From assembly GCA_000002445.1 (NCBI GenBank), contig CM000207.1:1-64000 (forward strand): a DNA stretch of 64,000 nucleotides. The letters are read 5' to 3'. The notes under the pieces were generated by a model, which saw only the letters and a list, made by a program, of their open reading frames with translations, was not told where the DNA came from and did no database searches. This stretch comes from Trypanosoma brucei (Eukaryota). This document shows positions 4,105-51,099 of this stretch, one piece after another. Each line of letters begins with the position of its first letter. Within the stretch, counting starts at the first letter, position 1. Made by a program: the position numbers and the translations under genes.

Positions 4105-4215
4105 TCTCTTCCACTTAGTCATTATTATCATTACTGCTCTTTTTATTACATTAGTATGCACACACTCCCAACACTTTCCCATTATCGCTGTTAATATTAC
4201 TATTACTCATAACTC
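4105..4215 (-). repeat. Single 70-bp repeat unit (reverse), upstream of the minus-strand VSG at 1871..3313
   Basis: ...attattatcattactgctctttttattacattagtatgcacacactcccaacactttccc... Confidence 0.75.
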
Positions 4216-4399
4216 TAAATAATATCCATAAAATAAACAACATAAGACAAATTAAAATATCACTCATTTTTCATACCGTGCCACCCTACTAATTAAAACC
4301 TATAAGCAACTTTCACACCAAAATTTCATATTTTCAGTTGCTGAGAAAGTGTTAAAATATGACAAAAATAGCTAAGTTTATAAATTATATAGAGTTTCA

Positions 4400-5900: not shown

Positions 5901-7189
5901 ACATGCAATCCCGGTAAAGGTACATGTGTCAACGTTACTGTTAAAGTCCGTCGGAAGTTCTGGCCGTTTCTGGTTTGCTGGTGCATCGCTACCTTCTTTT
6001 GTTTTTTGAGAGATTTATTGCTCTTCAAGGTGCCAAAAGTGGGAAATTGTACGCCATATGATAAAAGAATGTTTCTAGAAAAATAGAACTCAGTTGAGCT
6101 AAAATTGTCCACTTTAAAAAAAACTTTATAATTGTACATCTATATCTCAAACAGTTAAGATTTGTTTTTTTTGCTTCTAATGCACCCCAACTTCTTTTGT
6201 GCTTCTGCAACTGAAATGAAGATATAACGCTGGCTTTTCTGCCTCACACGTTGATATTTTCATTTTTTACAATAATACTGGCTTACTTTAGACCTCTTTC
6301 TTTTTTTTCTTGGAAATTAATATACTGGTTTCAAAGTTTTTCCTGAAGTTTCTTGATGCTTTCCGTCACTGCCGCGTCAGTGCGTATTCTTCTGGGAATT
6401 AACTGTTTCCTGAAATCCCTTAATGTGTGGCAAGTTTAGCAATACGAAATGGGAAGAGTATCATTACAATTTTTTTGTAATTTATAGACACCATCTATCG
6501 CATCATATACGTTGAATTTCAAGCCTTTTTTTCCTTTTGATTCTCCTTTCGCTGTTAAAACTAGTATATTAGAGTTCTTAGTTTTAAATTCTCATCCACA
6601 TAATATAATATTGTTGCCGAAAAATGTTACTAAATTTTAGTGTATTTGTTAAGAAGAGGCTTTTGACATTATATAAACTTACCCAGTCCATCACCATCTT
6701 TTACCCTTTACAGCTAGACATTATGATCGGTAATCAGAGTAAAAACAATAGTCACCACAATCTCTGGTGTAGTATCTATCTTTTTTTAAAGAAACGCAGT
6801 GCATCATCGACAACTCCTCTTCCTTCTAAAGTATTGTTTCCCCCGGTGTTGTGATATCCGTATCGTCTTGTTTTTTTTTCATATTTTCTTCCTTTTCAAT
6901 TAGTTTTCTATCGATGCTTCTGTGGGAAACGTAGCAAAACTATTTTTCTTGTGTGATAGACTCTGTCACTCCACAATTGTCCACTTAATAACATCCTTGT
7001 ATGATAATATATTTCATCCTATTTGTGTTTAAAAATGCATATATTCCATCTCTCTCCTTTTTCTTTAATAAAAATTCTTTATGCTCTCCGATTACTACTC
7101 CAATTCACTCACTTATTAGAATTGCACCCTTGTTATTAATTAAGTGTCTCTCTTTAGTGGTTTCGGCTAACCCACTACACATCTATTAT

Positions 7190-7262
7190 AATATTAGTGT
7201 AAACAATCTCATAATACTCTCCAATAACTATCATTATTATTACTATTATAACCCTGACTGAT
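7190..7262 (-). repeat. Single 70-bp repeat unit (reverse)
   Basis: TTA-rich tract plus ...ctcataatactctccaataactatcattattattactattataa... Confidence 0.65.
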
Positions 7263-7470
7263 ATCCATAAAATTAAAAAATAAGCAAAATAAAACGAATT
7301 AAGGAAATTATAATAGCACTCATTTTTTATACACTATCACCTTGCTAATTTTCACCCATAGGACACAATCATAAAACTTTTAGCACACTTCATAAAATTT
7401 TAGCGAATTTTCTCAAATATCAAATCGCATAAAATTCATAAAATTGAGCAAGGGTCTTTTACAAACTTAA

Positions 7471-8922
7471 TTATAGAATCAAAAATGCGAGCAAAAGAGG
7501 CTCCTTGTTAATGAAAAAAGAATTTCTTCCTGTGGTTTTCGTGGTTTTTCCATCTTCTTTTGCTGCCTCTTTCTTTTTTGGTTTGTAATCCGGATATACT
7601 ACACATTTTTTATTTGGTCCGTCACCGTCCCGTTTACAGCCATCTTTGCAAGTATATCCTGCTACTTTGGCCCCGCACTTTCCATCTGTTTGTCATGTTT
7701 TTTTTTTCTTTTCTTGTCATACCCGAGCTGCCGCAAGCCGGAGTGCTATGCCCTTGAAATAGCTGCTTTCCAGGGCTAGGTCAGCGCCTGTTGCTATGCT
7801 GTCTAGAGTTCCTTCCAAATCTTGAGTTCCTTTTTTGTATTTTGCCTGCTTGGTGTAGAGGCCGGTGGTATATCGCTCTCTGAAGGCTGTAGCATCGTCG
7901 TAAGTACTTTTGATGTGTTGTCTGATTTGCTCGGCTTCTTTGTCTTCTGATTGTGTACCTGCCGGGATTTCAATTGTTAGAAGTTGGGCTGCAATGTACA
8001 AAAAGTCGGTGTCACCGATTAAGGTGTCTATTGTTGTCCTTTCTAGGCCGATCGTTGGAGGTGCTTCTGCCTTTTTTGCTTTGCACAGCAGTGATGTTAA
8101 CTTTGCTGCCGACGGGATTTTTTTTTGTGGATCTTCTGTCTGGGCCTCCCAGCTCTGGTTCAGTCGTTAAGCTTTTTTTGTTTGTAATAGCTCGCCTCCA
8201 TATGTTGTGCCAGCCGATTCTGCTACCATCGAAATGCTGCTGAGCGTTGTCTCTGTGGTAGATGTCGTTTGGCATCTGCCGCTGTTGTCTGTGTCGAGGG
8301 CCGTTGAAAGCGTGAGTTCCAGGTCGTAGCTGCTCAGTTCGACGTCTATCTCCGGTTAAGTAGCTGCCTTTACCTTGGTTGCCCGGATTGCCGAGATTTC
8401 CTGCCATTCTAGCGGTGGGTTGCTTACTGTTGTTGGGTCGCATTTGTGTTCGACGTGCTTGTTCCACGTCTTTGTAGCTTTTCATTTGGTGTTTGTTGCT
8501 TGTCTGTCGTTTTGTGAGATTGTTATCGACGTATAAGACTGTGCCCGCCCTTGGAGATAACTTATGCACTGGAGAATTCCTTCTCTGACGCCGGTTAGTG
8601 TTTTCTTGTAGGTCGATCCTTTGGCTTTGGTTTTGTCTATTTTTAGCCGGCCAAGAAAAGCCAGTGCCGAGTAGGCATTTTGTTCTGTCGGCGTTGTTGC
8701 TTTTGCTGCTTTAAGTTGCCATATGTGCATCAGCTTGTCTGCTTGCTCGACATCGGTGTCGGTTATCGAAATTATGGACTTGAAATCCTCTGCTACTTTA
8801 TGCAGATATTTGGTCTCGTTGCAGAGAGAGGTTATGGCACTTTCGGCTTCGCTTTCGGCCGTTGCGTTTTGTATCTTTAGCATAGACAGAGTTAACACCA
8901 GTACATGCTATTGGTTGTTGGG
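7471..8922 (-). pseudogene. VSG pseudogene with an in-frame stop in the signal peptide and internal frameshifts
   Basis: Reverse translation of 7471..7700 gives ...CKDGCKRDGDGPNKKC...TTGRNSFFINKEPLLLAFLIL*, an intact GPI signal ending at the stop at 7471-7473. The N-terminus reads MVQPNNQ*HVLVLTLSMLKIQNATAESEAESAITSLC. Minus ORFs 7717..8001 and 8482..8898 are in different frames. Confidence 0.75.
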
Positions 8923-9299
8923 CTGAACCATCTTACTTTGTGGTCTTTCTTCCCTTTCTTTTCGTATTGCTTATAATTGTTAGTTACTTTTGGGGCTGAG
9001 TGGTGAGTATATTTTTTTCAATTATTCCAACCCTATCGACACTTAGGACGCTAACAGGGACGCGAAACTGAGGGTATGAAATATATCTTTTAGCTTTTGA
9101 TGTCTTCCTGGCGGCATGTCAAATTGCCTACATGAATAAGCACCAGTCATTTGGATGATATTTGGCTGTGCTGTGGTTGTAAAGGAAAGCTATATTGACC
9201 GTCTATTTGGTTGGGGGAATTTCGATGCTTGTATTTTTCATTAAATTCCATGTAATATCTGCTTATAAAAATACAAGCCGCATTCACCCGTTATCCGTC

Positions 9300-10795
9300 A
9301 AATTCCAATGTATTGTCAAGCGGTCGAACATCTCTATTTCTATACCGCACAACGAAAAACCTCTTTTCAGATCTCAAACACTTACAACTCTGATTTCTGT
9401 GTGCTTCTAATGCGGTTCAAATCCTGGTCTACGGATTGATCTGTAATAACGACATAACGCTGTCATTTTTGTCGTAAGGATGAGTTTTGTCATTTCAAGT
9501 GTTATCCAGTCCTCCTGGTGTTGTCTTTCATCTAATCAGTGCCCTGGTATAGAGGTAAAGTACAATGCTCGTTGCAGATAGTACCGGAGTGGATCCCAGC
9601 TGGCGGCAAGTATTTAGCTTACACTAAGAATGGATCTGCCTCAACATGCCGCCAGGGTCCAGTACCAGAAGAGAAATCGACTGGGAAGCCGAATGTTCCA
9701 TCCAAACGGCGGCCGCAACACAGGATCTGACGCGCCCGCTCCGTGGGGAGAGAACTATTACTAAGTATTCCACGGTCCAGCGCCCTGCTCAGGTAGAGGA
9801 ACCCAAATTACTGATGCAACCCCCGTCTGGGGAAGCAGACGGATATGGTAAACATGGTTCAGATGCAATGCAGGAGAGTATGGAATCGAATGGGCGTCAA
9901 ATGGAGGACGCTACGCTTAACAAGGTCGCGGGCAGTCTGCCACCCGTGGGTATAGATTCATCAAAAAAAAACAGGGGGTTTTAGTGGGTAGGAACGCCGG
10001 TATCAAGCGTTGAGCCCCATACTACACCATGTCCTCGTGGTGTGGTGTGTGTAAATGCATTTCCTCCTTACAATTGGATAGAGGAATGCATGGTCCTGAC
10101 GTTTGTTAGAGGGAAAATCAAAAAAAATCATTTCCACCGCTGTATCAGTCTTGATTCGTTTTTTATTTGTCGTTGTAGGCGTAGCCAGCGCCGTACAAAG
10201 CTTCAAGTAATTTTTTTGAAGTGTTGATTTTTTTTCGGTTATCCGCTGTTCCCTATTTAAAAATTTCTTCCGAAGTGTCTGCTGTCCGTCTGCTAAGTGT
10301 TTGAAAGCCTTTCGAAACCGAAGTTTCAAAGCTTCTGGTATGGGAAGATGGTATTTTTTTGAAAGGTTATGGCTGGTGTCGCGGTACTTGCAACGTCATC
10401 GTAGATCCACCTCAGTTATACGAATTTAGGATCATCATGGCCCTCAAAGAAGCCCTTTGTCGTTGGCTCCTTGTCTCCAGCTTCAACGTTAGGACACTTC
10501 TGAGCGTTCTTAAGAACTGCGACTTTTTGTTCTTCCGATACTGTCAGATTGATCTTTTGTAACATGGTCACGATTCCACTCATCACATCGAATATAGGCT
10601 TTTTCTTCCCTTTCTAGCCTTCCGTCACATGTGGCTGAGGAATTGGTTTCGCCAAAAGCCGATACAGCTTGCAAATGGCTCTGAACTCTTTTGCATTTTC
10701 GTCTGCTGCGCTTAAGTTGGATCCAGTAATAACGACAGAGAATGCTGTTTTTTAAGAACATCTTGTCGCTTCCTCAGTTCTACTGCTGATTAAAG
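9300..10795 (-). pseudogene. Possible highly degenerate VSG pseudogene
   Basis: Minus-strand translation near 10700..10790 gives ...AFSVVITGSNLSAADENAKEFRAICKLYRLLAKP, an a-type VSG mature N-terminus motif of the form A.NA.E...LC.LY. No convincing C-terminal GPI signal was found and the body is riddled with stops. Confidence 0.35.
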
Positions 10796-11999
10796 AGAGG
10801 CAAAACAAGCTGCAGAAAATTATATAAATGTGAAATTATACATGTTATAGGAAACTACCCGAAGCTCATGTAGAATGCAGCTTCACGGCTACGGCTGTTC
10901 ACTTAAAACAGCTGTTAGTTAATACAAAGAGTCTCCACTTTACATCTAATATATACCACTGTGTATCTATCTAAAAAATTAACATTTACTGGCTCTGTGT
11001 GTTTCTAGTGCGTTACAACTCCTGTTGTGCGGATGCATCTCGAATAACGGTGTAATGCTAGGATTTCTACTGTACACATAACATTCATCTTTCCTTACTG
11101 CCATTCTGATTTGTTGGCAATTTCTTTCTTCTCTTTGCCGTCTCTCGTTTTCATAACTTCAATTTGTGCTTTGACTTTTTGTAATTTTCTGTCAATTGAG
11201 AGAAAACGTGTATTCTTTTGTGAATTAGAGGCTCTTTAAAGAGTTTAAATTTCTCACCTGTGTAATAAATTGGAATTAGTGGAGTCTCGCCGTTAAGTCC
11301 TGATGCTTCATAGAAATCGCCAATCGCTTCGTATATGTTCTATGTTAAGGACATTTCGCGATTTTTTTCCTCATTTTTTGTCTACGGTAATCCACTAGTA
11401 GAACAGATTTTAATATTCCTGTCGCTGTAACATCATATTGTTTCTAACAAATGTTGGACATAATTACCATATATGATGAGACGAAGATTTCAACTTTACA
11501 CTGCACATTTTCAACCTCTTCCTCATTCTGCTTCAAAGCTGGATATTAGGACTTACCATCAGAAGACTATATTTTCCACAGACGTCACCTCTGCAGTAGC
11601 ATATATTTACTTTTGAGTGAAATGTGGGGCATAATCTTATCCTGTATCATTTGTTTCGTGGTCTACTGTGCCGCGCATCCCATTGCTACATTCTACATTT
11701 TTCCTTCTTTTTTGTTGGCCCTGTTTCTTCTAATAAAGAAGAAACATCATTTGGGCTGCACACTTCCAATTCCCCATAATTTCTTCGTCCACTATCTACC
11801 TTTGTATACTGATGCACATAATCATATTTGTGTTTGAAACTTCTCATATACCATTACCGTCTCTTCTCTGTCTTTCAGCCTTCCCTTTAATAATATCCGT
11901 TGTTTCGTCTTATCTTCTTTAGAAATCACTGGTATACCCACTAACTTAATCTTATTACACTCTTGCCTTTGTTTTACGTGCTTATTGTTTTTTTTCAAG

Positions 12000-12060
12000 T
12001 CGTGCTGCACCACCACTATTATTATAATATTACTGTAACTGCAACCTAAATTACTCCTAT
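12000..12060 (-). repeat. Partial 70-bp repeat (reverse)
   Basis: ...cactattattataatattactgtaactgcaacctaaattactcctattatc... Confidence 0.5.
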
Positions 12061-12307
12061 TATCTATAAGTTGACAAAATAAATCAAAAACGTTTTACCC
12101 TATCACCCTACTGATTTGCACTCGTATACCACTATCATGCTCATTTCAACATGTTTTTCTTGTTTTTTCTTTTCGAAATTTCCCTTTATTGCATGTTTTT
12201 ATAAAAAAGTGTTAAAGTATCTCCAATTTTAGAAAAATTTGTAAATTTTTACAAAACAGAAAAATTTCATAAACTTCATAAATTTAGACAAAAATATTTT
12301 ATAAACT

Positions 12308-23699: not shown

Positions 23700-24700
23700 G
23701 AATTATTGTGGTTGTTTTTCAAAATTATACAACTTAAGAATGGTGTAGACTCATATCGATTCCCAAACTAAGCAAAGTTGAAATTATCACAATTGCGATG
23801 GGAGTTTTGTATATCCATGTTACGAGACCGACATGGGTTATGGAATTTTTAAAAAACAGATTGCAAGTGATGATGATATTGTAATTACTGTAGATGGATC
23901 TGATGTTATTGTTACTGATGGACAGAAGTATGAAAATGCTGTGAAATATTTTATACAAAATACTGTAGATAATGAGGAAAATTTTAGTGGAGAGGATATA
24001 GTCAAAGAAAAGCGGATTTCTTCAATTCTATTTACGTCGACAGCTGAGTATTTTTAACCTCAGTTGGATTTGCTTATGAACTCACATCACAAGGAAAATA
24101 TGGAGAGATGTTATTGGTTTTTAAAGGCTCTTTACTCAGGAAAGGAAAAAATCAACCTAACTCATTTGCTAAAATGGTGGATAACTAAAAAACCTTAGTT
24201 GAGCAGTTGTGGTATAATAGCTAGTGTGGAAATTCAGAAAGTTTTAGAAAGCGTTTAATGAAATGCTTAAAATGAGCAACAGGTGGTGGTCGGATCAAAG
24301 TATTTCAAAGCCTTTGCTAATATGAAGTGCTATTCAGGAAGAAGCTGTTGGCCAGAGATTTGTTTTGAAAAGAGGGATGATTGGAGTATGATTATTAGGA
24401 GAGATTTTTTTCTAATCCATATAGTGTGGTGATTGGAGAGAATCCAGTTATTCATTTTCCAGGTCAGCCAATTGAATGGGAGGAGAAATAGAAATTGATT
24501 GTGGAAAATCTTACTTAGAATAAAGAGTTGAAAGGGAGGAAATTTAGTACGGTAGAGTTGAGAAAGATTCGAACTTATACGAGAGGTTGAAAAAAATTTC
24601 ATTTCACGTATGACAAAATTTGTATTTACGCATTTAAGGAAGGGTATTTATTTGAGACTTATAAAATGTGATTCCGAAGGTACTTTAAAGATGTTTGATC
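23700..24700 (+). repeat. VSG-upstream module type 1, copy A (degenerate)
   Basis: Shares ...taactcaag/aatggtgtag.ctcatat.ga...caaactaag...attacaattg... and the reading-frame remnants ASDDDIVITVDGSDVIVTDGQKYENAV (ORF 23833..24057) and a frameshifted W.DQSISKPLLI... with copies at 28850..29720 and 51100..51960. Confidence 0.6.
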
Positions 24701-24884
24701 ACAAAAAATCACCTTCCACGGTAATTTCTAATTAATATTAATGTTTTAGCCTTAAAGTCTTAAAGAACGCCACAAACCGGAAAGGTTTCTGTGACTTCCA
24801 AACTTACTCACAAGCCACTATAATTGGACGAACATTTACGCATTTCAACAAAAATAAAACCATAAATTTACTAACTTATAGGTA

Positions 24885-26384
24885 ATGCGGTCACTAATAG
24901 CGAATCTACTAACCGCACTAGTAGCTTTGACTTCAGTGGCACATTCGGCGCGAGAAAATGCACAGGAGTACGAAGCTCTTTGTGCAGCATATCAGGCAGC
25001 GACAGGCACCATTGAACCGGCGGATTTCAATACCGCGCAGGCAGATGCAGAAGTACCGACAGCTGTGAAGGCACTGTACGCGGCAACCATACCAGACGAA
25101 CACTACAATAATAAAACCTTTGGCATCTTCACAACCGACACAGAATTTACAGCAGTCAAAGATACAGTAAAAACCGAAAAAAACATTGACAAGTCTCCAG
25201 TTTACACCAGGCCTCCGGAAAGCCCAGGTAAGCGCGCTGCACTCACTGCTTTAGAAAGGCTGTACAACTCAACGAAAGCAACAGCTGGCCAAGCAGCCGA
25301 GAAACAAAAGGAGCTACAAAGCTTAAAAGAAAAGGCCGAAAAATTCTTAAAAGCAGCGGTTTTCGGACATGAAACGGCCACCGAAGCAAAAGAAGAAAAT
25401 TTCGACACCCGGGCCAACGCATGCAACGGCGGCGGCAATGCAAAGGCTGCCAGCCAAAATCTAGCACAAGCGCTAGCATGCGTTTGCGGCACAGCAAGCA
25501 CCAACAACGGGATCTGCGTCCAAGGGGAGGACCAAGCCAACTACGGCACAGGCAGCGGCGCTAGCGCTGGCGTCAGCGCCTATAAAGCCATAGTAGCAAA
25601 ATGTCAACCCGCCACCGAACCAAAAAAAGTCACGGCAGAACTGTTGACAGCGGCAGTCAGCCAAGTAGAATCCGTGCTCGGCAACAAAGCCTTCACAGGC
25701 CACACCAACAACGGAAGGTACGTCCTAGGAAACGGCGCGGCAGCGAACTGCAATGGCGGGGACAGTTCAGCCACTTGCATTGATTACACGACAACAGTGG
25801 GAACAGGAACATTCCACAAAGTAAAATGGGTCGAAAACATGCTCCAAGCAACGAAGGAACTGAAAAAAGCATATACCATAAGAGCGGAGCAAGCCAAAAT
25901 GCAGGCCCAGCTGGAAGCAGCAGAGGCTCAAGCGTGGCAGCTACGCGACACTCTGGCCATAGCCACTATAACCGCAGCACATGCAGCAGAAACTATCAAA
26001 CCTTCCAAGCGCCAACGACAAGAAACAATCGACTCCAAAGAAGCAGAGTGCAATACCAAAGACAAAGACACAGATTGCAAACCGCCATGCGCGTGGAATG
26101 CCGAAGCAAAAGATGAGAAAAAAAGGTGCACATTGAGCGAGAAAGGCAAAGAGGCAGCAGAAAAAGTAGCAGCAAACCAAGCAGGGACAGATGGTAAAAA
26201 TGAATCAAAATGTGGCGAGGCGAAAACAGAAGACGAATGCAAAAAGGTCCCGGGCAAGACACCAGAGGGAAAGAAAGCCGTTTGTGGATGGATTGAAGGC
26301 AAATGTCAGGATTCCTCAATTCTAGCAAGCAAACAATTCGCCCTCAGCGTGGTTTCTGCTGCATTTGTGGCCTTGCTTTTTTAA
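24885..26384 (+). CDS. VSG: Variant surface glycoprotein, apparently intact (499 aa, a-type)
   Basis: Signal peptide MRSLIANLLTALVALTSVAHSA, mature start RENAQEYEALCAAYQA, Cys-rich C-terminal domain and GPI signal ...CQDSSILASKQFALSVVSAAFVALLF*. 16-mer TGATATGTTTTAACAC at 26432-26447. Confidence 0.88.
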   Translation: MRSLIANLLTALVALTSVAHSARENAQEYEALCAAYQAATGTIEPADFNTAQADAEVPTAVKALYAATIPDEHYNNKTFGIFTTDTEFTAVKDTVKTEKNIDKSPVYTRPPESPGKRAALTALERLYNSTKATAGQAAEKQKELQSLKEKAEKFLKAAVFGHETATEAKEENFDTRANACNGGGNAKAASQNLAQALACVCGTASTNNGICVQGEDQANYGTGSGASAGVSAYKAIVAKCQPATEPKKVTAELLTAAVSQVESVLGNKAFTGHTNNGRYVLGNGAAANCNGGDSSATCIDYTTTVGTGTFHKVKWVENMLQATKELKKAYTIRAEQAKMQAQLEAAEAQAWQLRDTLAIATITAAHAAETIKPSKRQRQETIDSKEAECNTKDKDTDCKPPCAWNAEAKDEKKRCTLSEKGKEAAEKVAANQAGTDGKNESKCGEAKTEDECKKVPGKTPEGKKAVCGWIEGKCQDSSILASKQFALSVVSAAFVALLF

Positions 26385-26431
26385 AACAATTTTTCCTCCT
26401 CAATTTTTTCCTTTAAAAAACTTTTGCTATT

Positions 26432-26447
26432 TGATATGTTTTAACAC
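26432..26447 (+). promoter_or_regulatory. VSG 3'UTR conserved 16-mer
   Basis: TGATATGTTTTAACAC versus consensus TGATATATTTTAACAC. Similar elements occur at 27603, 31881, 41840, 45253 and 58105 after the other plus-strand VSGs. Confidence 0.7.
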
Positions 26448-26584
26448 GCAAATTTACCCGAAAAAAGTGAACTGTTTTTGTAAGTTTGTAAAAAATTCTG
26501 ATTCTGTAAAAAAATATTTTGTTTTTCTGGCAACTAAAATTGTTTTTTTCCCGTTGTTTTTTGTTTTTTTTTGTGCAGGTAGGG

Positions 26585-26616
26585 GGGTTAGCCGGCTTAG
26601 ACTTAGGGTTAGGGTT
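26585..26616 (+). repeat. Interstitial telomere-like tract (degenerate TTAGGG x ~5)
   Basis: ggttagccggcttagacttagggttaggg about 200 bp downstream of the intact VSG stop. Confidence 0.6.
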
Positions 26617-27172
26617 TTTTAGTTTTGGGAGTATTTTTTAATTCTCTTTTTATAATTTTTATTTTTTTAATAAATCTCTATTTTCTTAATTGTAAGTGAT
26701 GTAGCGGCTTTTTTACGTCAATCCTAATCATTTTTCTACCAGAAGATAACTTTTATTCATATTTTTCACCTGCAGCGCCGACCAGATTTGTTACTTTCTT
26801 TTGCTTTTGTGAATTTCAGCTCTGCGTTTTGTGCTTCGCGCGGCCTTTAAAATTTTGAAAAAAAAACGTTGCCGCGTGGCCTATGGTGCTGTGGACCGCT
26901 TTTCTTTTTACGCTGTAACGGGGACTTTTGCTGCGCGAAACGACTTTCTTTTCAAGAGACGCTAACAAACAAAACTTAATATTTGGAAGCGGAACAATAT
27001 GGAGTTCGGAAGATAAAGCCATCCGAAATAACAGTCTGTACCGGTCGTGTCACACCACAACAACCTAGGCAAAACAAACGAAGCCCGCGACCAGTTAACT
27101 TGTGCGTCATCAGGCCAATGCGTGCACATCGCCATGCAGCAACAGATCAGGCAGCAGATGTAAAGCACCTTA

Positions 27173-27595
27173 ATGCAGGGCTCCATAATCACTACAGGCA
27201 TAAATCCACCTCAAAAACCAAGCAGAAAGCCAATAGTAGAGGAAAAGAATAAATGCAAACTAAAAAACACAACTGCTGTAGAAGGATGTGCGGCTATTGA
27301 CTATTACTATGATGAAACTAACAAAGAATACAAGACAAAACCAGGAAAAGAAAACACATCAACAGGAACAGGAAAGACAAGTACCGGAGTATACTGCAGT
27401 AAACACCAAACACAGCGAGCCTGTGAAGCGGAAAACAAGGATGTAAAACCGGGTCAGAAAGCAGTATCTGGATGTATTGAGGATAAGTGCAAAGATTTAT
27501 TTTTTCTCTTCAGTAAGAATTTTGCTCTGATGGCTGCTTCTTTTGTGAGCTTGGTACTATTCAAGGATTTTGAATTTTTAAATTTGTTATTTTGA
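27173..27595 (+). pseudogene. VSG C-terminal fragment with stop codon lost
   Basis: ...CEAENKDVKPGQKAVSGCIEDKCKDLFFLFSKNFALMAASFVSLVLF followed by read-through. 16-mer TGATATATTTCAACAC at 27603-27618. No N-domain upstream. Confidence 0.7.
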
Positions 27596-27784
27596 GAGAA
27601 TTTGATATATTTCAACACCTCCTGATGATAATGTGCAAATTTTAAAAACACAAAATTATAAAATTATGGTTTCAAATTGTCCATGGTTGTATCGTACTAA
27701 TTTTATAAGAATATTAAAAGATTTATAGTGTAATTTGCTTTATTTTTCTTGTTTTATGAACGTTAGTTAGGGTTATAATAGTGA

Positions 27785-27920
27785 TAGTAAGGTGAAAGAT
27801 AAGAGTAAGTTGTTAGTGTGTATATACTAATAGTATACTAAAAGCAGTAATTATAGTTATAATTATTATTATTAAGATAGGAGAGTGTTGTGAGTATATG
27901 ATAATAATATAAGTGGTGAA
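27785..27920 (+). repeat. 70-bp repeat(s), forward
   Basis: ...attattattattaagataggagagtgttgtgagtatatgataataatataag... Confidence 0.75.
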
Positions 27921-28849
27921 GACAAATTGAATGCTCCAAATAATAGCATTTCAAGCGATAGCAAGGGTTTAATAAAGTAAGTGGGAAAAGTAGTGTGAGA
28001 GTGAGTGCTTGGGAGAGAAAGAGAACAAGAGGAACATTATGAAAGATAATGGAGAATAATTTTTTTAAAAAATGAAAATGAAAGATAAGTAGCTTACAAT
28101 AAATACAAAACAATGTTCGTCTTTATACACAAGAAGATTATCGGGGAACAATATGAAAGAGACAAAATAGAGCGCAATGACCAACTATGGTTACCCCATC
28201 GGCCGCCGCGCACATACCGCAGAAATTTGTGATGTATCAGTATTAGTAGGAGAAGATTGTAGCCAACATGTCACTGAAGATCTACAGATTTAGCAACACA
28301 GATTGTGATAACAACAATAGTAACATTAGTTTATAAAGACACGATGATGGGACTTTCACGACAAAACAGGGTGGTTGGATAACTATGACAGGCAACTCGT
28401 AATATTCATAGAACATTTAAAATAATCAGGTCAACTAGCTACTTCCATTCAGAAAACTATGCATAGAGGTTAAATGTGAAGATTGTTAAACAGCAGTGGA
28501 ATTCCTCTAGCATTCACAGCACCAGATTATACTAAAACTGATACTAAAACAAAAAGTTAGAGATGTATGATTAAAGAGGTGTTTCAGACACTGATAATAC
28601 GTCATTTAACAACGAAATAATAACAATATTAATGTATTGTTATGTAAAACCAGTAGTGACTCAACATATTTTTTTCTTTTATTTGTTATGATTTTCTTAT
28701 AACATTCTCAAATTTTTTAAGTAAATTAAGTCATTAAATTTGGTGTTTTGGAAAATTTACTATTACCATTTATATTACATAAAGTGTTTCACAGTGCAAA
28801 AACATTTCCGGAAAAACAGGAAAATATAGAATAGGGTCAACATGGGAAG

Positions 28850-30290: not shown

Positions 30291-31860
30291 ATGAAAGCCA
30301 GACAAATAATTACTCACCTGGCGGTGCTGTTGCTATTAGTGACCCCGCAGGCACGGGCAGCGGCACCGGCAGATGGCGACAACTTAGCGACGCTGGCGTA
30401 CTTGTGCCCCGCCCTTCAGCTAGCGGACGGCGACATAACATTGCACCCCGAACAAAGCAATCTAGATGGCAGCCTACAAGACCTGCTAGCGCTAAACATG
30501 TCACTAGCAGACGCCGCCTGGGCAGCTCAATTCAAGGCCTCACCGCCAGGTGCAACGCCAGTAGCAGCAACCGAGCAGCAGCAGAAGCCAGACCCCGGGA
30601 CACCAGAACAAATTGCTGCGTGGAAAATCGCCAAGGCAACAGTAGATAACAGCGCAAACTTCAAAAATGTGCTCGCAAAATACGGTTACACCCCAGAAAA
30701 CGCCTCGCAGCTGATACCGTTGAAAGGACTGATCGCTAAATACGCTGAAGCGGCATTCGACATACAGACAGCCGAAAAGTCGCAACTGCCGACCGGTCAT
30801 ACGGACGATCAACTGAAAACTCTGATAAAAACAGCAGTCTACGGGCATAACGGCGGCTACGACGTAAGCAAAAAAGCAGAGCTGGGATTTCCAGACAGCG
30901 AAAACCGAGAAGCCGCCTGCACGGCCCAAAGCAACAGCAACCCCGTAAAAACGATTTCCAGCATGGTCGCCTGTTTGTGTACAGTCAAAGACAACATGGC
31001 GCCAGCCAAAGCTCCGTGCGGCCCATACGGCAGCCAAGACCTCAAATGGGGCACAACCACGCCGCCAGGAAACGCTTTGTGGAAAAAGATGCGATCCAGC
31101 TGCCCAGAGGAACCCAAAAAGCCGGTAACCGCTATGAGAATACAAAACGCGCTCACGGCAGCAAAACTAGCGTTCCAAGCAGGAGGCAGCGATCTTTATG
31201 TAGGGAAATACGACGGGACAGGATGCGACGGCAGCACCAATACTGCCTGTATAAAATACACAGGCCAGGCAACAAACTCAGTACCTATCTTCACAAAAGC
31301 CGAGTGGCTCGACAAACTTCAAACAGTACAAAGCGACTTGCAGCAGCGCCTGTTAGCGGAGCAGTCAAAAAGCCAGGTAATCAGGCAAATAAAAACACTA
31401 AAGCAGCTGGTCAAAGCAGCCACCAAACACGCAGAAAAACTTACACCGCCAACGACGCAGCACCATAGCGACCCAAAACTAGCCACCGCAAACGACAAAA
31501 ATAGCCAAGCTCAGAAAACAGCAGATTGCTCAAAACTTGAAAAAGCGGAGTGCAAGCCCGATGTGGGATGCAGATATAACGAAACAACGACTAAATGCGA
31601 AAACGATGCCCAAAATCCAGTTTCAAAAACGAACAAAGAAGCTACAGGAGGAACAACAAACTCTGAAGGTAAGAAGTGCCCCGAAAAGAAAAAAGCAAGA
31701 AGACTGCAAAGATGGCTGCAAATGGAACGGAACAGAATGCAAAGATTCCAGTTTTCTCCTAAACAAACAATTCGCCCTCAGCGTGGTTTCTGCTGCATTT
31801 GTGACCTTGCTGTTTCAAAATTTTAAAACTTACAAGGGGTTTTGTTTAGTTTTGTGAAAC
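30291..31860 (+). pseudogene. VSG pseudogene with intact N-domain, C-terminal frameshift and lost stop
   Basis: 511-aa ORF 30291..31826 with signal MKARQIITHLAVLLLLVTPQARAAAP. Its C-terminus is out of frame. The proper C-terminus ...CKDGCKWNGTECKDSSFLLNKQFALSVVSAAFVTLLF sits in ORF 31537..31857 and runs on (QNFKTY...) because TAA is replaced. Confidence 0.75.
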
Positions 31861-32009
31861 TTATGTTACTTTCTAAAATTTAATATATTTTAACACTCTT
31901 TATCAAACATTTGCAAATTATTGTGTCTTTTTGAAAATATGAAAAATGTTTATAAACGTTTCCAATAGACATAAAGTAGTATGGTGATAGGGTATAAAAT
32001 GGGTGATAT

Positions 32010-32345
32010 TCTAATTTGTTTATTCAGTTATTTTTTGTTTTTATTAAATGGATATTTACTATTGTTATAATAATGATAAAAATAGGAGAGTGTTGTGAGT
32101 GTGTGTATACGTATATTATAATAATATTAATAATAATAATAGTAATGATAATAATAATAATAATAGGAGAGTGTTGTAAGTGTGTGTATACGTATATTAT
32201 AATAATAGTAATAATAATAATAACAGTAATGATAATAATAATAATAGGAAAGTGTTGTGAGTGTGTATATACAAATATTATAATAAGAGCAGTAACAATG
32301 ATAATAATATCGGTGTGTTGTTAGTTTGCATACACTAATATTATA
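32010..32345 (+). repeat. 70-bp repeat array, forward, ~4 units
   Basis: Repeated ...ataggagagtgttgtgagtgtgtgtatacgtatattataataat... Confidence 0.85.
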
Positions 32346-33257
32346 ATAAAAGTTGTCGTGAACACTAAATACACGAAGAAAACACAATCATTTAAATTAA
32401 TAAAAAAAGTGAGACAGGAAAAGGTGAGTAAAACTGTGAGAAAGAGATAAAGTATATTATTATCGAAGGAAGTGCAACAAAACCAGTGACGAATTTGGAT
32501 AAAATACGTGTAACCTTAAATACACGCATAATGCTTGGCGCCATCACTGTATACAAGGAGATTATGGGACGTTCAATACGATATTGGTAGAGCTCAGTTT
32601 ACAGGGGAAATGGAATCGGTACGTTATCTGCAAAAGAAGCGACAGAAAACAAAAAATAGGAAAATATAGAATTAAACGACACAATATGCAACAGCACATA
32701 AGAGAGAAAAAAGTACATCAAGAACAACAAGAACAGGTGAAGCCTTGCATTTTTCTTGGAAATATATGGGCGCATCAGCTGAGATGTTTCAAACTGCTGT
32801 TTTTAATCTTATTATGGATACTAGTGTGAAACAATGACTGCAGTGAGAGGAGGCTAGTATGCTAACTGTGTGTTATTTGCCATAGCCACAAATAAGAGAG
32901 CATAAATGGAGAGGTAAGATGGTCACTTTTTTTGCTGATATTGGTAGAAATGGGTGAATAATCTACACATAATTCAAAGGAAAAGGTATAGCCCACGTCG
33001 ATCCATCTGGTGGGAAGTGTAAATAGACCTACCCGCGGTCATTGAAAGCGCCAACTTGTCTTGATCCATAAGAAGAGGGAAAACATGCGAATCATCCTTC
33101 AAAAGCTGGCTCATCCAGCAGAAATGTACCAGCGTAATGCTAATCCGCTGTCAAAACTAAGTTATATTCCTCTTAAAAAGACTTTTTTCGTCCTTAAACT
33201 AGCCTCACCACAACAGGAATCAAATATCCCCTTTACAAGATAGGCAAAGTCAATTAA

Positions 33258-43484: not shown

Positions 43485-45221
43485 ATGTTCACCTGTACTA
43501 AAACAACTGCTCTCTCCTCCACAGAAGACCCACCACGTTTGCAACGACAAGAAAAGAAACGACAAAATCCGCAGAGAATGCAACAGTCAAGAAGCAGGAC
43601 ACCGGTCTGCTCCAAAAATTGCGCGCTAAAAGCGCTTTGCATAACCCTAGCGACACTGATACTAGCACCTAAAACTAGCGACGCCGCGGCAGCTACAGCC
43701 GGAAGCAACTCAGCCGTTTTCCAGCACCTGTGCACACTGGTGAATGCAGTCACTGAAGTCGAGAAAGTGGGAGACGTACCGGCGACAGTAACGCAAATAC
43801 ACGCCATTGCAGAAAGAACTGCACTAATATTCAGGGCAGCAAAAGAACTAGAGGAACTAGCAGCCCAAACCCCTGGAACCACAAAAAAGGAAGTGGCGTC
43901 AAAGAAGCCAAACACAATTTGCACTGAACAATTGAAGGACGCATGTGCCAGGGCAGCAACATACTTGAAGCAAATGAAACCACAGGACAGGCAGCATTTA
44001 CTAGCTTTTGTCGCTAGCGGTAACCCAGCAGTGCAGCTAGTAAACGACACGGCTAACTCGTTACTGTTAAAGACGTCAAATTTCATAGCCGATGCAGAAA
44101 AAAGGTCTAATAAGGAAGCTCTAAAACATCTGCGTACGACTTTCTACAGTGAAGGTAGAGACTCAGTAACTAATGCAATATTTGCTGATGCAAGCGGCTG
44201 GAAAGACGAATGCGGTAGCCAGAGCGGGGCAGCAGCCACGGGTGCAAAAAATAATCTAGCTGCAACCTTTCTTTGCCTGTGCGCAGCCGACTCAAGTGGC
44301 TGCAACCCAACCTGCAAGACTTGCGACAACGAGGCGGTGCCGGCCGTCACATTCACAACCGGCGGTAACGACGCGACAACAGCATTCGACAAAATAAAGA
44401 CAATATGCAAACGACGGGCAGCGACACCGAATCTTAACCAGCTACCAGAGGCAATAGCAAAAACGGTAGCCGCAATTGAAGAGGACTTAGCGGCGCACAA
44501 AGGCAACGGCCCCGACGTCGGCATGATTGGCGCCATCACCTCCGGCGGCCGGCCAGCCTGCGACGGCTCCAGCACGGCAGGCAAAGGAGCGTGCGTCTAC
44601 CTTGGTGCAAGCGGGAGCGCGCCGAGCAAGCCAAGCTGGCTCGATGAACTGACCCAAGCACTGCTCGCTGCCCAAACTGCTGCAAAAGCGGAACTCGATA
44701 GCACAGCACAAGCAGCTCATATTGAGGGAATCAACACAACCCTAGCGCTAGCACTACTAAACGGCATTTATCAAACACAAGCCAACAGCAGACAACAGAC
44801 ACATCAGGAGGCGCCTCAACACCCTAGAGAACACATGGCTAACTCAGCCAAGACACAAAAAGAATTTGAGCAACACAAAGACAACAAAACTGCTTGTACA
44901 GAAGCCAAATGCAAATGGAAAGGAGGGGACGATGAAAAAGGGGAGTGCAAAGTAGATAAAAGTAAGGTTAAACAACAGATAAATACAGCAGTAACAGGGG
45001 ATGAAACTGCAGGAACAACAAAAGATGTGTATATATAACACGAAACCAATAATGAAGCCTTTGTATCTGACGAAAAATGTAAAAAAAATAATCGTGCATT
45101 CAGAAAGGGTAAAGATAATGAAGATGACAAGGATACAGAAAAGTATAGAAATGGTAGATTTATCGTCAATAATAAAATGGTTCTGAGTATGAATGCTGCC
45201 TTTTTGGATTTATTTTTCTAA
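43485..45221 (+). pseudogene. VSG with intact N-domain and a C-terminal frameshift (GPI signal out of frame)
   Basis: 517-aa ORF ends ...CKWKGGDDEKGECKVDKSKVKQQINTAVTGDETAGTTKDVYI* with no GPI signal. A shifted frame downstream encodes ...NGRFIVNNKMVLSMNAAFLDLFF* ending at 45219-45221. The probable true start is M at 43581 (MQQSRSRTPVCSKNCALKALCITLATLILAPKTSDA), and the upstream 32 aa look like read-through. 16-mer CGATATTTTTTAACAC at 45253. Confidence 0.75.
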
Positions 45222-45399
45222 ATTTTTTCCCATTTAAAAATTTTTTATAATACGATATTTTTTAACACCTTTTGTAAAAAAGTTGCAGATTTATAAAATT
45301 TTCGTATGAAAGTGGGATATGAGTACAAAAAAGTAAAATGATAGGTTATAAAAGATGAGTGACATTCTAATTTAATTTTGTTTTTTAATGATGGACATT

Positions 45400-45480
45400 A
45401 AGTAGGGCTATAATAGCAATAGTCATAATAATTATTAGATGAGAGTGTTGTGAGTGTATATGCACCAATATTATAAGGTG
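45400..45480 (+). repeat. 70-bp repeat, forward, single
   Basis: ...aattattagatgagagtgttgtgagtgtatatgcaccaatattataag... Confidence 0.75.
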
Positions 45481-46191
45481 AGTGGTTAAGCCTAATTGCA
45501 CGAGCAACATAGAAGCACTTACAACAGTTAAGATAGTGTAATATTAGTAAGTTTGCGAGTTAGAAAGAACAGGCAGGACAATTATGAATGTTATGATAAA
45601 GGAAAATGAAGGGTTGGGGCGACTCACCCGTAATGTCAAAATAAGAAGTGCACAAGTAAAAATCATTAGAAATAATATAGGAAACGCAATCATGGGGAGG
45701 CTCAACGCCTAGGGAGAATAAAAAAAAGTTGACACGTTGAACGCAGCAAAAGCAAAAGGATATTCTGTTGGGCACGGTGCAAAGGAAGACACTCAAATCA
45801 AAGATAAGAAAGAGCGGACTTTTTTTCTTTCGTGCCTTCGTGGGAGTTTCCCCCACTGGCGCGGCCATCAACCATCACCGTAGAGCCCTGAGATGCTATC
45901 GATCTGGCGACTGTGGTAGAGTCTCCCTTTTTTATTCAGCCTAACACACCCTTTATAATTTTTGTTGTAGTTCCGCAGTTGAACGGAATACAGCAGATGG
46001 GGCGAGAAGCCTCCCACTCCGGACTCTCCCAAAGATGTCAATTAGCAATCCTTTTGTTTTGATTTTTGTTATTCGTTTATTATTCTCTTCTCCCTCTTTC
46101 TGTTTCTGTTGCTTGTTGATTGCATACCCCCTCTGTCTCTGAGGGTGTCTGGACTATTCCTGCGTCCGGTGCTTTTCCTGCTAGCTCCACA

Positions 46192-48318
46192 CTAGGCAAT
46201 AAGGGGGGAAGTTGCAGAAGGGAGAGTGGGTTGTATGACTGTTACCTTAGGTGAGGACTTCACCTGCGGCCGGCTCCGTTCAACCGCAATGAGAAACTGC
46301 GCCAGCCTTTTAGAGAAACATACATCCTGCACACACTCACCTTCTACCGCAAACCTGACATGTAACTCCTTCAAACCGGGGCAGCTCATCAAGTGCAGCG
46401 ACGTTTCTTCGCAGTCGCCGCGTTGGCTGGTAACAGCGCGCTCTACCTTCATACCGTGCATCTTCTTTTGATGTAGGGTGAGGCCAGTTTTGCTAGCACA
46501 CTTCCTTCCGCATGTCGGGCACACCAACATGGATGTGTTTGTATGCGGGGAATCAGTGGCACACAATTTTGTGCTTTTGCTGCATTTAAGCTCGGCTCCC
46601 TCACCTTTGTGGAAAGCCTTACAGTGTCGGATGAGGGAGTCCCTGCAACTGAGCACTTTTTGGCACACACCACACTGCACCTCTCCTCTCCCCCGGACGT
46701 CAACGTTTCCCTCACGGGCACGCTTACGAGGGAATTGCACCACCACAACGGTACCTTCCTCCGTCACTATGCTTTTATGTTTGAATTTTTTGTGTAGTGA
46801 CAGGGAAGAGCGTGTACCGAAGCTCGCCTCACACAGGTCACATTGAAACGGCAGCTTCCGTGTATCCTGAGGAGCTGGCACTGCTGGGACGCTACCATCT
46901 CCTTGCACTGAGTCCTCGTTTTCTTGCCCCCTTTTCACGTGGCAACTACCGTTACCTATGCCATGTATTGTTCTAAGGTGGTGTAATAGTCGGCCTTGCA
47001 CTGCGAATTTGGAGGCACAGATGGTACAATGAAGCAACTGCGGTCTCATCGGGACTCGTGTGTTCGATGGTAGAGGAACGATCGCCACCACTGGAGGGGG
47101 CTCCGGGGGGATATCCACTGCAGGTGTTGCATCGCCGTATTTGATCCTCCGGAGGGCATCAGCTCGCACAAAGCCATGTTTGTTTACCATGTGCGTTACA
47201 GCACTCGAGCGGCATTGGTATGTGGCATCACATTCCGTACATTTTGTCGGTTCGGAGGTTCTCTGAAGAGTGCGTGTCGCAACAGGTGGGGCCTTTTGTA
47301 TTGTTGGTCCTATCGGTGCATGTTTCTGGTTGCACCATCGGCACTGTGGAGGCACACTCGGGTTGATCTTTCGCAACATCCATCCATAGTGTCTTGAAGA
47401 CCCAACCCGAAAGCGTGCCAGTGCCGTTTCTTCTTCCCTCGTCAGTTCTTCTTTATGTTTTGTTGGAAAGTGGTTGCCCGTGATACCAAACCTATGAGTG
47501 TTCTCATGGACTTCTTCCGACCTAAGCACTCGCTTCGCATAAGCAATGATGTTGGGGATCCATGTGTCTCGCAACTGTGGTAAATCTGCGGCCTTTTTGG
47601 CCATTTTATCACAAACCTCATTCCGTTTCACGCTACAATGGCCAAACACAAATTGCAGTCGGATACGCACTTTCCTTCTCTGAACTTGAAGCAGAAGCCT
47701 CCATAGTCGTCTCAGAATTAGCTCTGTTACGGGTACGGGGCCTATCTGCAGTGCTGTTAACATTGACAGCGAGTAAGAGAAGATGGACAACCTGCTCGGT
47801 GTGCTTCTGTATGCCAGAAACCATTTCAGCAGCCTTTGCAGTCCTATCTCTAATGCTACGCATTCCGCTCTGTAACTGCATGAGAGTTCCCCTGCTCCGG
47901 TCTTGGGTGCACAAATCAGCGTGTTGTTTCTATGGAGCATGGCAGCTGCTCCGGACTTCTCACCGAGGGACACGGATCCATCAGTCCACAATTCGTAGTG
48001 CTCTCGTCGCGATGGCTCCTTCCCCCTCCGTGCAAAATGCCGTTCAATCCACTTTTCGTAAGCCTCCCTTTTAACATCGTCAGGGTCATCAGCGCACACA
48101 GGCTTTACCTGCGTGTGAAATAGCGGTCGGCAGCTGTGGCGGAGCGTCGATGTCTCTAGTGGGTGCTCGCGTGGCTCAATGTGGAGGTGGGGGTAGGACC
48201 GCATGATGCGGGAATGTAAGACTCTGACTGGGTGTTTGCTGTGGTATACTTCCTCGGCACTGCGCCGCAAACATCCGCCTCGTGACTCATACATCAGCAT
48301 GAATTTCATACTGCCCAC
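46192..48318 (-). pseudogene. ingi copy 2 ORF segment: RNase H/C2H2 zinc-finger C-terminal region
   Basis: About 95% identical at the protein level to the 16124..18853 segment of copy 1. Confidence 0.75.
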
Positions 48319-48810
48319 AAGAGTGGCCGTCTTGAGTGGCAGGAGGTTTGCTTCCAGCAGAGAGTCCTCTTTGCGCGTCCCATGCGGTATGCCGGCTATG
48401 ATGCGACTGGCCTTGTGTTGTGCTGCTGCAAGGAGGTCGCGACTTCGTTTCGAAGCGTCTCAGTACCATACCTCACTGCCATACATGGTGTGTGCCTCTA
48501 CGAGTGCTAGATAAAAAGCTCTCAGTACTTGTCGTCTTGGCCCCCATGTAGAAGTTGAGATGGCTGCTATCTGCAGTAGTCGAAAGTCCATCTTGCGTCT
48601 CGTTTCGGCCGCATGTGTTGCCATCCCTTGCAGACACTGGAATGTTACTCCTAGAAGCTTCGGTGTCCTGTCAGCTCCTATTCTTTCGCCGTTCAGTTGT
48701 AATGTAAGGGAGTGGCGCTCTATACACCCGAAGAGTGTGCACTTTGTTTTCGCTACGTTGACATACATGAAGTACTCTTTTGACCACTGTAACACCACGT
48801 TTAGGCCGCA

Positions 48811-50001: not shown

Positions 50002-50079
50002 TTTCTGTTCCAGGGTGTTGACGTTCTTCTCTCTACCAATTTTCCTGCAGAGCTCGTCAACCTTGAGACGGAAATTACT

Positions 50080-51058: not shown

Positions 51059-51099
51059 TGAGTAAATAGTACAACAAAGATAGCAAAGAATGACCGCAA

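What the first reader, a model, noticed from the sequence alone, without database searches (positions are those of the whole stretch)
26585..26616. Fossil telomere repeats just downstream of an intact array VSG
About 200 bp past the stop and 3'UTR 16-mer of the intact VSG at 24885..26384, the sequence reads ggttagccggcttagacttagggttaggg. That is roughly five degenerate units of the trypanosome telomere hexamer TTAGGG. Telomere-adjacent VSGs (expression-site or minichromosomal copies) are known to sit within 1-2 kb of the telomere tract. An interstitial tract here suggests this cassette was once telomere-proximal, or was copied together with its telomeric 3' flank. It may also be a healed break or an internalised chromosome end.
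Basis: partly seen in the sequence, partly recalled or inferred. Interest (0 to 1): 0.6.

Follow-up and report, generated by a model that had tools for sequence, protein, structure and literature searches.

The report
Fossil telomere behind an array VSG
A silent surface-coat (VSG) gene inside a Trypanosoma brucei gene array still carries, just downstream, the flank and first few repeats of a chromosome end, so this copy once sat beside a telomere or was copied from one that did.

Summary
GGTTAGCCGGCTTAGACTTAGGGTTAGGG lies at 26586-26614, 196 nt or more past the stop of the intact VSG at 24885-26384 (T. b. brucei TREU927, EAN76224.1). No shuffled window reached its telomere-phase match (20/24; 0 of 300).

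Two Trypanosoma equiperdum contigs end in a VSG followed by TTAGGG arrays (L005, L006). Their 3' flanks are homologous to window 26392-26616 (184 of 200 ungapped columns identical to L006). The homology stops at the second perfect repeat.

The first TAGG unit lies 133 nt after the 3'UTR 16-mer in the window, against 129 and 135 nt in the two telomeric contigs. A profile of the ordinary array 3' flank matches the other 14 VSG 3' ends in the window, but not this one. A profile of the telomeric flank matches only this one.

After 26616 come about 620 nt of unassigned sequence. An orphan VSG C-terminal fragment with an ordinary array flank follows.

My best reading is a former array-terminal, telomere-proximal cassette whose telomere shrank to a few repeats and was then joined to more array. 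A copy from a telomeric donor is the main alternative.

The tract is probably inert today. It might give this VSG extra 3' homology to expression sites.

The parts
22476..22776 (+). 5' boundary of the cassette: the generic array 3' flank of the upstream VSG pseudogene, followed by about one 70-bp repeat unit
   Evidence: The generic-flank profile hits 22479-22696 and 22701-22773. 22676-22773 matches the 70-bp repeats of L006.
22777..24884 (+). Co-transposed region between the 70-bp repeat and the VSG start
   Evidence: Homologous to the regions upstream of T. equiperdum VSGs: L001 at 80-86%, L004 at 72%, L005 at 76%.
24885..26384 (+). Intact type-B VSG, 499 aa, EAN76224.1 / XP_803373.1 of T. 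b. brucei TREU927
   Evidence: ORF. Exact match in the protein collection. Pfam VSG_B plus Trypan_glycop_C.
26385..26447 (+). VSG 3'UTR, with the conserved 16-mer at 26432-26447
   Evidence: The 16-mer matches with one mismatch. The region aligns with the 3'UTRs of L004, L005 and L006.
26448..26578 (+). T-rich 3' flank of the telomere-proximal type (46% T on the coding strand)
   Evidence: The L006 flank has a single blastn hit in the window, 26462-26572, 84% identity, E 2e-28. The L005 flank has a single hit, 26451-26575, E 2.5e-10, with a Smith-Waterman score of 102 against 18-29 for the 14 other flanks. The telomeric-flank profile hits only 26450-26565, E 8e-17. The generic array-flank profile does not match beyond about 26484.
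26579..26616 (+). Truncated start of a telomere tract: GTAGGG GGG TTAGCC GGC TTAGAC TTAGGG TTAGGG TT, with the G-rich strand running 5'->3' away from the VSG as at a native chromosome end
   Evidence: Searches give the sequence and its statistics. It aligns with the degenerate and first perfect units of L006 (11732-11772) and L005, and the alignment ends at 26616. The 16-mer-to-first-TAGG distance is 133 nt, against 129 and 135 nt in the telomeric contigs.
26617..27239 (.). Unassigned sequence distal to the breakpoint: T-rich to about 26790, then more GC-rich. It belongs to whatever was joined to the eroded end.
   Evidence: No significant match elsewhere in the window or in the T. equiperdum loci. 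No VSG similarity. No Pfam hit in six frames. No Rfam hit.
27240..27586 (+). Orphan VSG C-terminal-domain fragment with no N-terminal domain upstream
   Evidence: blastx matches to VSG C-terminal domains over 27239-27586. Pfam Trypan_glycop_C profile positions 28-104 of 104.
27603..27916 (+). The fragment's own 16-mer (27603-27618), a generic array 3' flank and a 70-bp repeat; the ordinary array resumes here
   Evidence: 16-mer. (generic-flank profile 27604-27846, E 3e-42; 70-bp part 27851-27909).

Best explanation
The tract is the proximal stump of a real telomere. The VSG at 24885-26384 carries the 3' flank that is characteristic of telomere-proximal VSGs: 3'UTR, about 130 nt of T-rich conserved sequence, degenerate TTAGGG-like units, then perfect repeats. 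The repeats stop after two units, and unrelated sequence and more VSG array follow.

Shown:
- The flank and tract are homologous, in position and orientation, to the flanks of VSGs that end in telomere arrays.
- The flank is unlike that of every other VSG in the window.
- The homology ends at 26616.

Inferred history. This cassette was once the last VSG of an array, next to the telomere, as in T. equiperdum contig L006. The telomere eroded or broke down to a few repeats. The deprotected end was then repaired by break-induced replication or microhomology-mediated joining onto another array segment, which made the old end internal. I put this at about 45% of the probability given a telomeric origin. 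It explains why only two perfect repeats survive.

The main alternative, at about 30%, is a duplicative copy from a telomeric donor into the array. That copy would start in the 70-bp repeat and end by template switching just inside the telomere tract.

Present function: most likely none (a neutral relic).
For: - Sequence and statistics of the tract.
- L006 is the contig end of T. b. equiperdum BoTat QSBY01000012.1. It has a VSG, a 16-mer, a T-rich flank, (TTAGGG)5 and 29-nt repeats up to the contig end. Window 26392-26616 aligns to L006 11558-11772 with 184 of 200 ungapped columns identical.
- L005 is T. equiperdum OVI CZPT02001929.1. It has a VSG followed by (TTAGGG)n at the contig end, and its local alignment to the window ends at 26614.
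- Flank-only queries, without the 16-mer and without telomere units, hit the window once each, at 26451-26575. They score 102 against 18-29 for the other 14 flanks, and 24.7 +/- 4.4 for shuffles.
- The generic array-flank profile matches 14 of 15 VSG 3' ends in the window and 3 internal ends in L006. It does not match this flank or the terminal VSGs of L004-L006.
- The first TAGG lies 133, 129 and 135 nt after the 16-mer in the window, L006 and L005.
- Literature: telomere repeats start 200-1590 nt after BES VSGs (PMC2567434). 'TTAGGG-like' repeats 3' of VSGs are used as a marker of telomere-proximal VSGs (PMC3708902, citing Aline & Stuart 1989).
- An orphan C-terminal-domain fragment and unassigned DNA distal to the tract mark a rearrangement joint.
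Against: - Only two perfect repeats remain.
- The telomeric comparators come from T. equiperdum and carry different VSGs. No telomeric copy of this same VSG could be retrieved, and no 'empty site' allele either, so the event is not dated and its breakpoints are defined on one side only.
- TREU927 and Lister 427 DNA could not be reached with these tools.
- The sample of flanks is small: 15 in the window, 3 internal and 3 terminal in T. equiperdum. The frequency of this flank type at internal sites genome-wide is therefore unknown.
- The nature of 26617-27239 is unexplained.
- An assembly or cloning chimera at 26616 cannot be excluded from sequence alone.
Confidence: 0.82

Rival explanations
1. 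An older relic inherited by internal duplication. The telomeric-type flank with its short tract is telomere-derived in origin, but this particular copy was duplicated from another internal copy and was never itself at a chromosome end.
For: VSG cassettes duplicate within arrays. A paralogous cassette with 86% identity, including the co-transposed region, exists in T. equiperdum (L001). The degenerate units here (TTAGCC, GGC, TTAGAC) differ from those in L005 and L006, which suggests some age.
Against: No second copy of this flank occurs in the 64-kb window. The flank is still 84-92% identical to a present-day telomeric flank. The L001 contig ends before the flank, so a paralogue with the same joint has not been shown.
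Confidence: 0.1
2. A healed break or telomerase-mediated insertion. A double-strand break about 200 nt downstream of an ordinary array VSG was repaired with addition of a few TTAGGG units by telomerase. This is how short interstitial telomeric sequences form in mammals.
For: Short interstitial tracts inserted at repaired breaks are documented in vertebrates (PMC7215372 and PMC2246262, listed). The tract is short.
Against: The 130 nt upstream of the tract are not array-type flank. They are homologous to native telomeric flanks, and the degenerate units preceding the perfect repeats align with those of L005 and L006. The tract therefore sits at the native telomere start of this flank family, not at an arbitrary break.
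Confidence: 0.03
3. Assembly or cloning artefact. A telomeric VSG clone or read was joined in error to array sequence at a short repeat.
For: Subtelomeric VSG arrays are hard to assemble. The joint is abrupt, and the 620 nt after it are unassigned.
Against: Reads from a real telomere would carry long TTAGGG runs, not two units followed by unique sequence. Sequence on both sides is otherwise well-formed cassette structure. This cannot be tested with these tools.
Confidence: 0.04
4. Chance resemblance in a T/G-containing intergenic region.
For: With one mismatch allowed, 15 of 100 shuffles contain a 12-mer hit.
Against: The exact 12-mer occurred in 0 of 300 shuffles, and 20/24 in phase was never reached. 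Chance also does not explain the independent flank homology that ends exactly at the tract, or the matching distance from the 16-mer.
Confidence: 0.01

Closest known systems
Conserved 3' organisation of telomere-proximal VSG genes (Aline & Stuart 1989; 'TTAGGG-like repeats 3' of telomere-proximal VSGs' in Hall et al. 2013, PMC3708902)
   Same: 3'UTR with the 16-mer, a T-rich conserved flank of about 130 nt, degenerate TTAGGG-like units, then perfect repeats. The order, spacing and orientation match those in the telomeric contigs L005 and L006.
   Different: The repeat tract stops after two perfect units. It is followed by non-telomeric DNA and at least 37 kb of further VSG array, so the gene is not telomere-proximal now.
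Interstitial telomeric sequences (ITS) of other eukaryotes: relics of internalised or fused chromosome ends, or telomerase insertions at repaired breaks
   Same: A short telomere-repeat tract at an internal chromosomal site that marks a past rearrangement.
   Different: The subtelomeric flank is preserved with the tract, which identifies the origin as a native end and not an insertion. There is no head-to-head CCCTAA partner as in end-to-end fusions. I found no description of such tracts in T. brucei VSG arrays in the searchable literature.
Ordinary array VSG cassette (70-bp repeat, co-transposed region, VSG, 3'UTR, generic flank, next 70-bp repeat)
   Same: The upstream 70-bp repeat, the co-transposed region, the intact VSG and the 3'UTR are all standard.
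   Different: The 3' flank beyond about 40 nt past the 16-mer is not the generic one found at the other 14 VSG ends in the window.
Telomere conversion / duplicative transposition of telomeric VSGs (established VSG switching routes)
   Same: They involve copying a VSG together with its downstream telomeric flank.
   Different: The known events copy into an expression-site telomere and run to the chromosome end. Here the product is internal and silent, which implies movement in the opposite direction, from telomere to archive.

Membership tests
Telomere-proximal VSG 3' flank | VSG 3'UTR with the conserved 16-mer immediately upstream | tested here: met
   TGATATGTTTTAACAC at 26432-26447.
Telomere-proximal VSG 3' flank | Flank homologous to flanks of VSGs that demonstrably abut telomere arrays | tested here: met
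   Single, specific hits of the L005 and L006 flanks and of their profile at 26450-26575. 184 of 200 ungapped columns are identical to L006.
Telomere-proximal VSG 3' flank | Degenerate TTAGGG-like units at a fixed distance after the 16-mer, G-rich strand pointing away from the gene | tested here: met
   The first TAGG is at +133 nt, against +129 (L006) and +135 (L005). The tract is on the coding strand.
Telomere-proximal VSG 3' flank | Continuation into a long (TTAGGG)n array to the chromosome end | tested here: not met
   There are two perfect units only. Unique sequence and further array follow to 64000.
Generic array VSG cassette | 70-bp repeat upstream of the co-transposed region | tested here: met
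   22676-22773.
Generic array VSG cassette | Generic 3' flank leading into the next 70-bp repeat | tested here: not met
   The profile built from 8 flanks matches 14 of 15 ends but not this one. There is only weak similarity up to about 26484.
Interstitial telomeric sequence | Telomere-repeat units at a non-terminal site | tested here: met
   The tract at 26579-26616 has more than 37 kb of sequence on its distal side. This rests on the assembly being correct.
Interstitial telomeric sequence, telomerase-insertion type | Repeats inserted between otherwise contiguous flanks (an ITS-less orthologue exists) | not testable with these tools
   No orthologous or allelic locus could be retrieved. The upstream flank is of the telomeric type, which argues against this subtype.
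Interstitial telomeric sequence, fusion type | Head-to-head TTAGGG/CCCTAA arrays | tested here: not met
   There is no CCCTAA run nearby. The only CCCTAA hexamers in the window are at 33379 and 39659.

The most novel reading that the evidence does not exclude
The fossil telomeric flank gives this silent array VSG about 230 nt of extra 3' homology to the flanks of expression-site and minichromosomal VSGs. It would then recombine like a telomeric donor and be activated unusually early.

By gene order (intact type-B VSG, with the next annotated VSG about 10 genes downstream) this gene may be Tb09.v4.0077. That array VSG reproducibly becomes dominant in TREU927 infections (PMC3708902 Table S1, Set_08; PMC6464242). 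The identity is not verified here.
Probability: 0.12. Interest if true: 0.8.

Novelty: new member of a known kind. Interest (0 to 1): 0.55.

Why it matters
VSG genes are known to be copied from silent arrays into telomeric expression sites. How the silent archive itself is renewed is poorly documented, including whether telomeric (possibly newly assembled) VSGs ever return to internal arrays. An intact array VSG that keeps a telomeric flank and the first telomere repeats is direct sequence evidence for movement from a chromosome end into the array, or for growth of an array beyond a former end.

The two flank profiles built here separated terminal from internal VSG 3' ends cleanly in the small sample available (15 ends in the window, 3 internal and 3 terminal ends in T. 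equiperdum). They offer a simple test that could be run genome-wide to count such events. The same test could ask whether VSGs with this flank are activated earlier in infection.

Tried and rejected
- Direct look-ups of the window VSG, of two other TREU927 VSGs and of Lister 427 VSG2 in the contig index found nothing. No T. brucei DNA outside the window was available.
- A word-index search with the C-terminal domain alone returned nothing.
- P0027, listed in the VSG's 90% cluster, is an unrelated 32-aa metagenome peptide.
- The closest VSG relative with DNA (T. equiperdum L001, 86%) ends inside the C-terminal domain, so it gives no flank. L002 has a retroelement-like insertion immediately after its 3'UTR (recognised by eye as ingi/RIME, not tested).
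- Exact-pattern scans of the metagenome and prokaryote-genome collections for the tract found nothing, as expected.
- I first suspected that the tract was a variant of a G-rich block (GGTGATAGGGTAT) in the ordinary array flank. I rejected this. That block is only loosely conserved: 10 of 14 flanks match within 3 substitutions, and only 2 contain TAGGGT. The generic profile does not align to the tract region.
- Rfam and six-frame Pfam searches of 26000-28000 and 26600-27600 found only the orphan C-terminal-domain fragment.
- Literature searches found no paper on interstitial telomere repeats in T. brucei arrays. Marcello & Barry 2007 and Cross et al. 2014 are not held.
- I could not verify that this VSG is Tb09.v4.0077.

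Full report
**Source and setting.** The window is a VSG array of Trypanosoma brucei brucei TREU927. The ORF at 24885-26384 is exactly EAN76224.1 / XP_803373.1, on a 3,057,547-bp chromosome record. Its annotated neighbours EAN76223 and EAN76225 are the ORFs at 12308-13771 (-) and 52253-53779 (+). The window holds 70-bp repeats, VSG 3'UTR 16-mers, long retroelement-like ORFs that I read as ingi without testing them, and about 15 VSG genes, pseudogenes and fragments.

**The observation.** The VSG stop ends at 26384 and the 16-mer TGATATGTTTTAACAC is at 26432-26447. The tract therefore starts 196 nt after the stop.
- It is the only TTAGGGTTAGGG in the window.
- It is the best match to a phased telomere array on either strand, at 20/24 against 17/24 for the runner-up.
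- In 300 dinucleotide-preserving shuffles the exact 12-mer never appeared and no 24-mer exceeded 18/24.
- With one mismatch allowed, 15% of shuffles give a hit. Two hexamers alone would not carry the case.

**This flank is not the ordinary array flank.** I aligned the sequence after eight other 16-mers in the window. They share a clear architecture: TGCAAATTT, a purine-rich stretch, a loosely conserved GGTGATAGGGTAT block, TTTATTTTATGGATATTA, then the next 70-bp repeat.
- A profile of that alignment found six further full-length copies, giving 14 VSG 3' ends in total. It found nothing behind the VSG at 24885-26384.
- Run with all filters off on 26380-26900, it aligned only weakly, up to about 26484.
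- blastn of 26385-27250 against the window matched only within the 3'UTR.
- So 14 of 15 VSG ends are generic and this one is the exception.

**Getting telomeric comparators.** T. brucei genomic DNA could not be reached directly. A full HMMER search with the C-terminal domain, followed by cluster look-ups, pointed to T. equiperdum VSGs on short or terminal contigs.
- L005 (strain OVI, CZPT02001929.1, 2711 bp) has a VSG ending at 2348 and a 16-mer ending at 2425. A T-rich flank follows, then degenerate units from 2560, then perfect (TTAGGG)n to the contig end.
- L006 (strain BoTat, QSBY01000012.1) ends with a VSG (stop at 11551) and the same kind of flank. It then has (TTAGGG)5 at 11759-11788 and two copies of a 29-nt repeat, TTAGGGTTATCGGGTTCAGGTGTTTCGGG, up to the contig end. 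From memory, this is the telomere-derived 29-bp subtelomeric repeat of the 1980s-90s literature; I did not check that here.
- L004 has the same flank, but its contig stops 150 nt after the stop codon.

**The decisive comparison.**
- Window 26392-26616 aligns with L006 11558-11772, with 184 of 200 ungapped columns identical. The alignment runs through the degenerate units and ends at the second perfect repeat.
- Ordinary blastn gives 26274-26616 against L006 11447-11778 (E 3e-59), again ending at 26616.
- The alignment with L005 ends at 26614.
- The post-16-mer flanks alone, without telomere repeats, each hit the window exactly once. L006 hits 26462-26572 at 84% identity (E 2e-28). L005 hits 26451-26575 (E 2.5e-10).
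- The Smith-Waterman score of the L005 flank is 102 against this flank. It is 18-29 against the other 14 flanks, and 24.7 +/- 4.4 (maximum 44) against shuffles.
- A profile built only from the T. equiperdum flanks hits the window once, at 26450-26565 (E 8e-17). The generic profile hits three internal VSG ends of L006, but not its terminal VSG and not L004 or L005.
- The distance from the 16-mer to the first TAGG is 133 nt in the window, 129 nt in L006 and 135 nt in L005.
- The G-rich strand points away from the gene, as at a native end.

**Literature context.**
- In 17 sequenced Lister 427 expression-site clones, the VSG-to-telomere-repeat distance was 200-1590 nt (PMC2567434).
- The flank type is therefore known. 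I found no report of it behind an internal array VSG, and none of interstitial telomere repeats in T. brucei arrays. Key subscription papers are not held.

**What lies beyond the tract.**
- From 26617 the homology to telomeric flanks is lost.
- 26617-27239 matches nothing in the window or the fetched loci. It has no VSG, Pfam or Rfam similarity.
- At 27240-27586 there is a VSG C-terminal-domain fragment (Pfam profile positions 28-104 of 104) with no N-terminal domain. It has its own 16-mer (27603), a generic flank and a 70-bp repeat.
- The tract is thus one side of a rearrangement joint, and ordinary array resumes about 1 kb downstream.

**Mechanism.**
- Shown: the cassette carries a telomeric-type flank and the first units of a telomere, truncated at 26616.
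- Inferred: contig L006 shows the likely ancestral state, an array of generic-flank VSGs whose last member abuts the telomere.
- I favour erosion or breakage of that telomere down to a few repeats. The end would then be repaired by break-induced replication or microhomology-mediated joining onto other array DNA, which internalised the old end. This explains why so few repeats remain. T. brucei is reported to lack canonical end joining (PMC13233330).
- The main alternative is a duplicative copy from a telomeric donor, starting in the 70-bp repeat at 22676-22773 and leaving the template just inside the telomere.
- An older relic propagated by internal duplication is also possible.
- De novo telomerase addition at a break is disfavoured, because the flank and the degenerate units are native telomeric sequence.
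- An assembly chimera cannot be excluded without reads.

**A lead I could not close.** In TREU927 infections the array VSG Tb09.v4.0077 (intact, type B) reproducibly becomes dominant (PMC3708902 Table S1; PMC6464242). The VSG here is an intact type-B gene. The next annotated VSG lies roughly ten genes downstream, which would fit Tb09.v4.0088. I could not verify the locus tag. If the identity holds, the extra roughly 230 nt of homology to telomeric flanks would be a candidate reason for early activation.

**Verdict.** It is a new example of a known kind of feature: an interstitial telomere relic carrying a known flank type. It is of moderate interest as direct evidence for telomere-to-array traffic of VSG cassettes.

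Noticed in passing
window 1-64000 (14 sites listed, e.g. 31883-32124, 45253-45482, 58106-58367): The 3' flanks of array VSGs share a well-conserved architecture of about 250 nt between the 16-mer and the next 70-bp repeat. In the sample available here, a profile of it separates internal VSG ends from telomere-proximal ones, in both T. brucei and T. equiperdum.
   Followed up: yes
window 27240-27586: An orphan VSG C-terminal-domain fragment with its own 16-mer and generic flank but no N-terminal domain. It is preceded by about 620 nt (26617-27239) that match nothing available.
   Followed up: partly
window 24885-26384: This VSG may be Tb09.v4.0077, the array VSG that reproducibly dominates TREU927 infections by about day 12-20 (PMC6464242, PMC3708902). 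Several expressed array donors in those studies have neighbouring locus numbers (Tb09.v4.0071, 0073, 0075, 0077, 0088). The identity rests on a gene-order argument only.
   Followed up: partly
window 13771-24885: VSG orientation switches from the - strand (genes at 1877-13771) to the + strand (24885 onward). Long retroelement-like ORFs, read as ingi without testing, lie at 16124-20754 (-) in the switch region. A second such element is at 46192-51099 (-).
   Followed up: no
window 30291-31826 and 43485-45038: Two full-length VSG_B ORFs (511 and 517 aa) are absent from the protein collection, although their neighbours are present. They are presumably annotated as pseudogenes or atypical genes. 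The first has no Pfam C-terminal-domain hit and the second only a partial one.
   Followed up: partly
L006 11789-11849: After five perfect TTAGGG units, the T. equiperdum BoTat contig end carries two copies of a 29-nt repeat, TTAGGGTTATCGGGTTCAGGTGTTTCGGG. No trace of this repeat is present in window 26000-28000.
   Followed up: partly
window 1-1600 and 32067-32350: There is a long 70-bp-repeat array of about 1.6 kb at the left edge of the window. Most other cassettes, including the one studied, have only one to three units.
   Followed up: no
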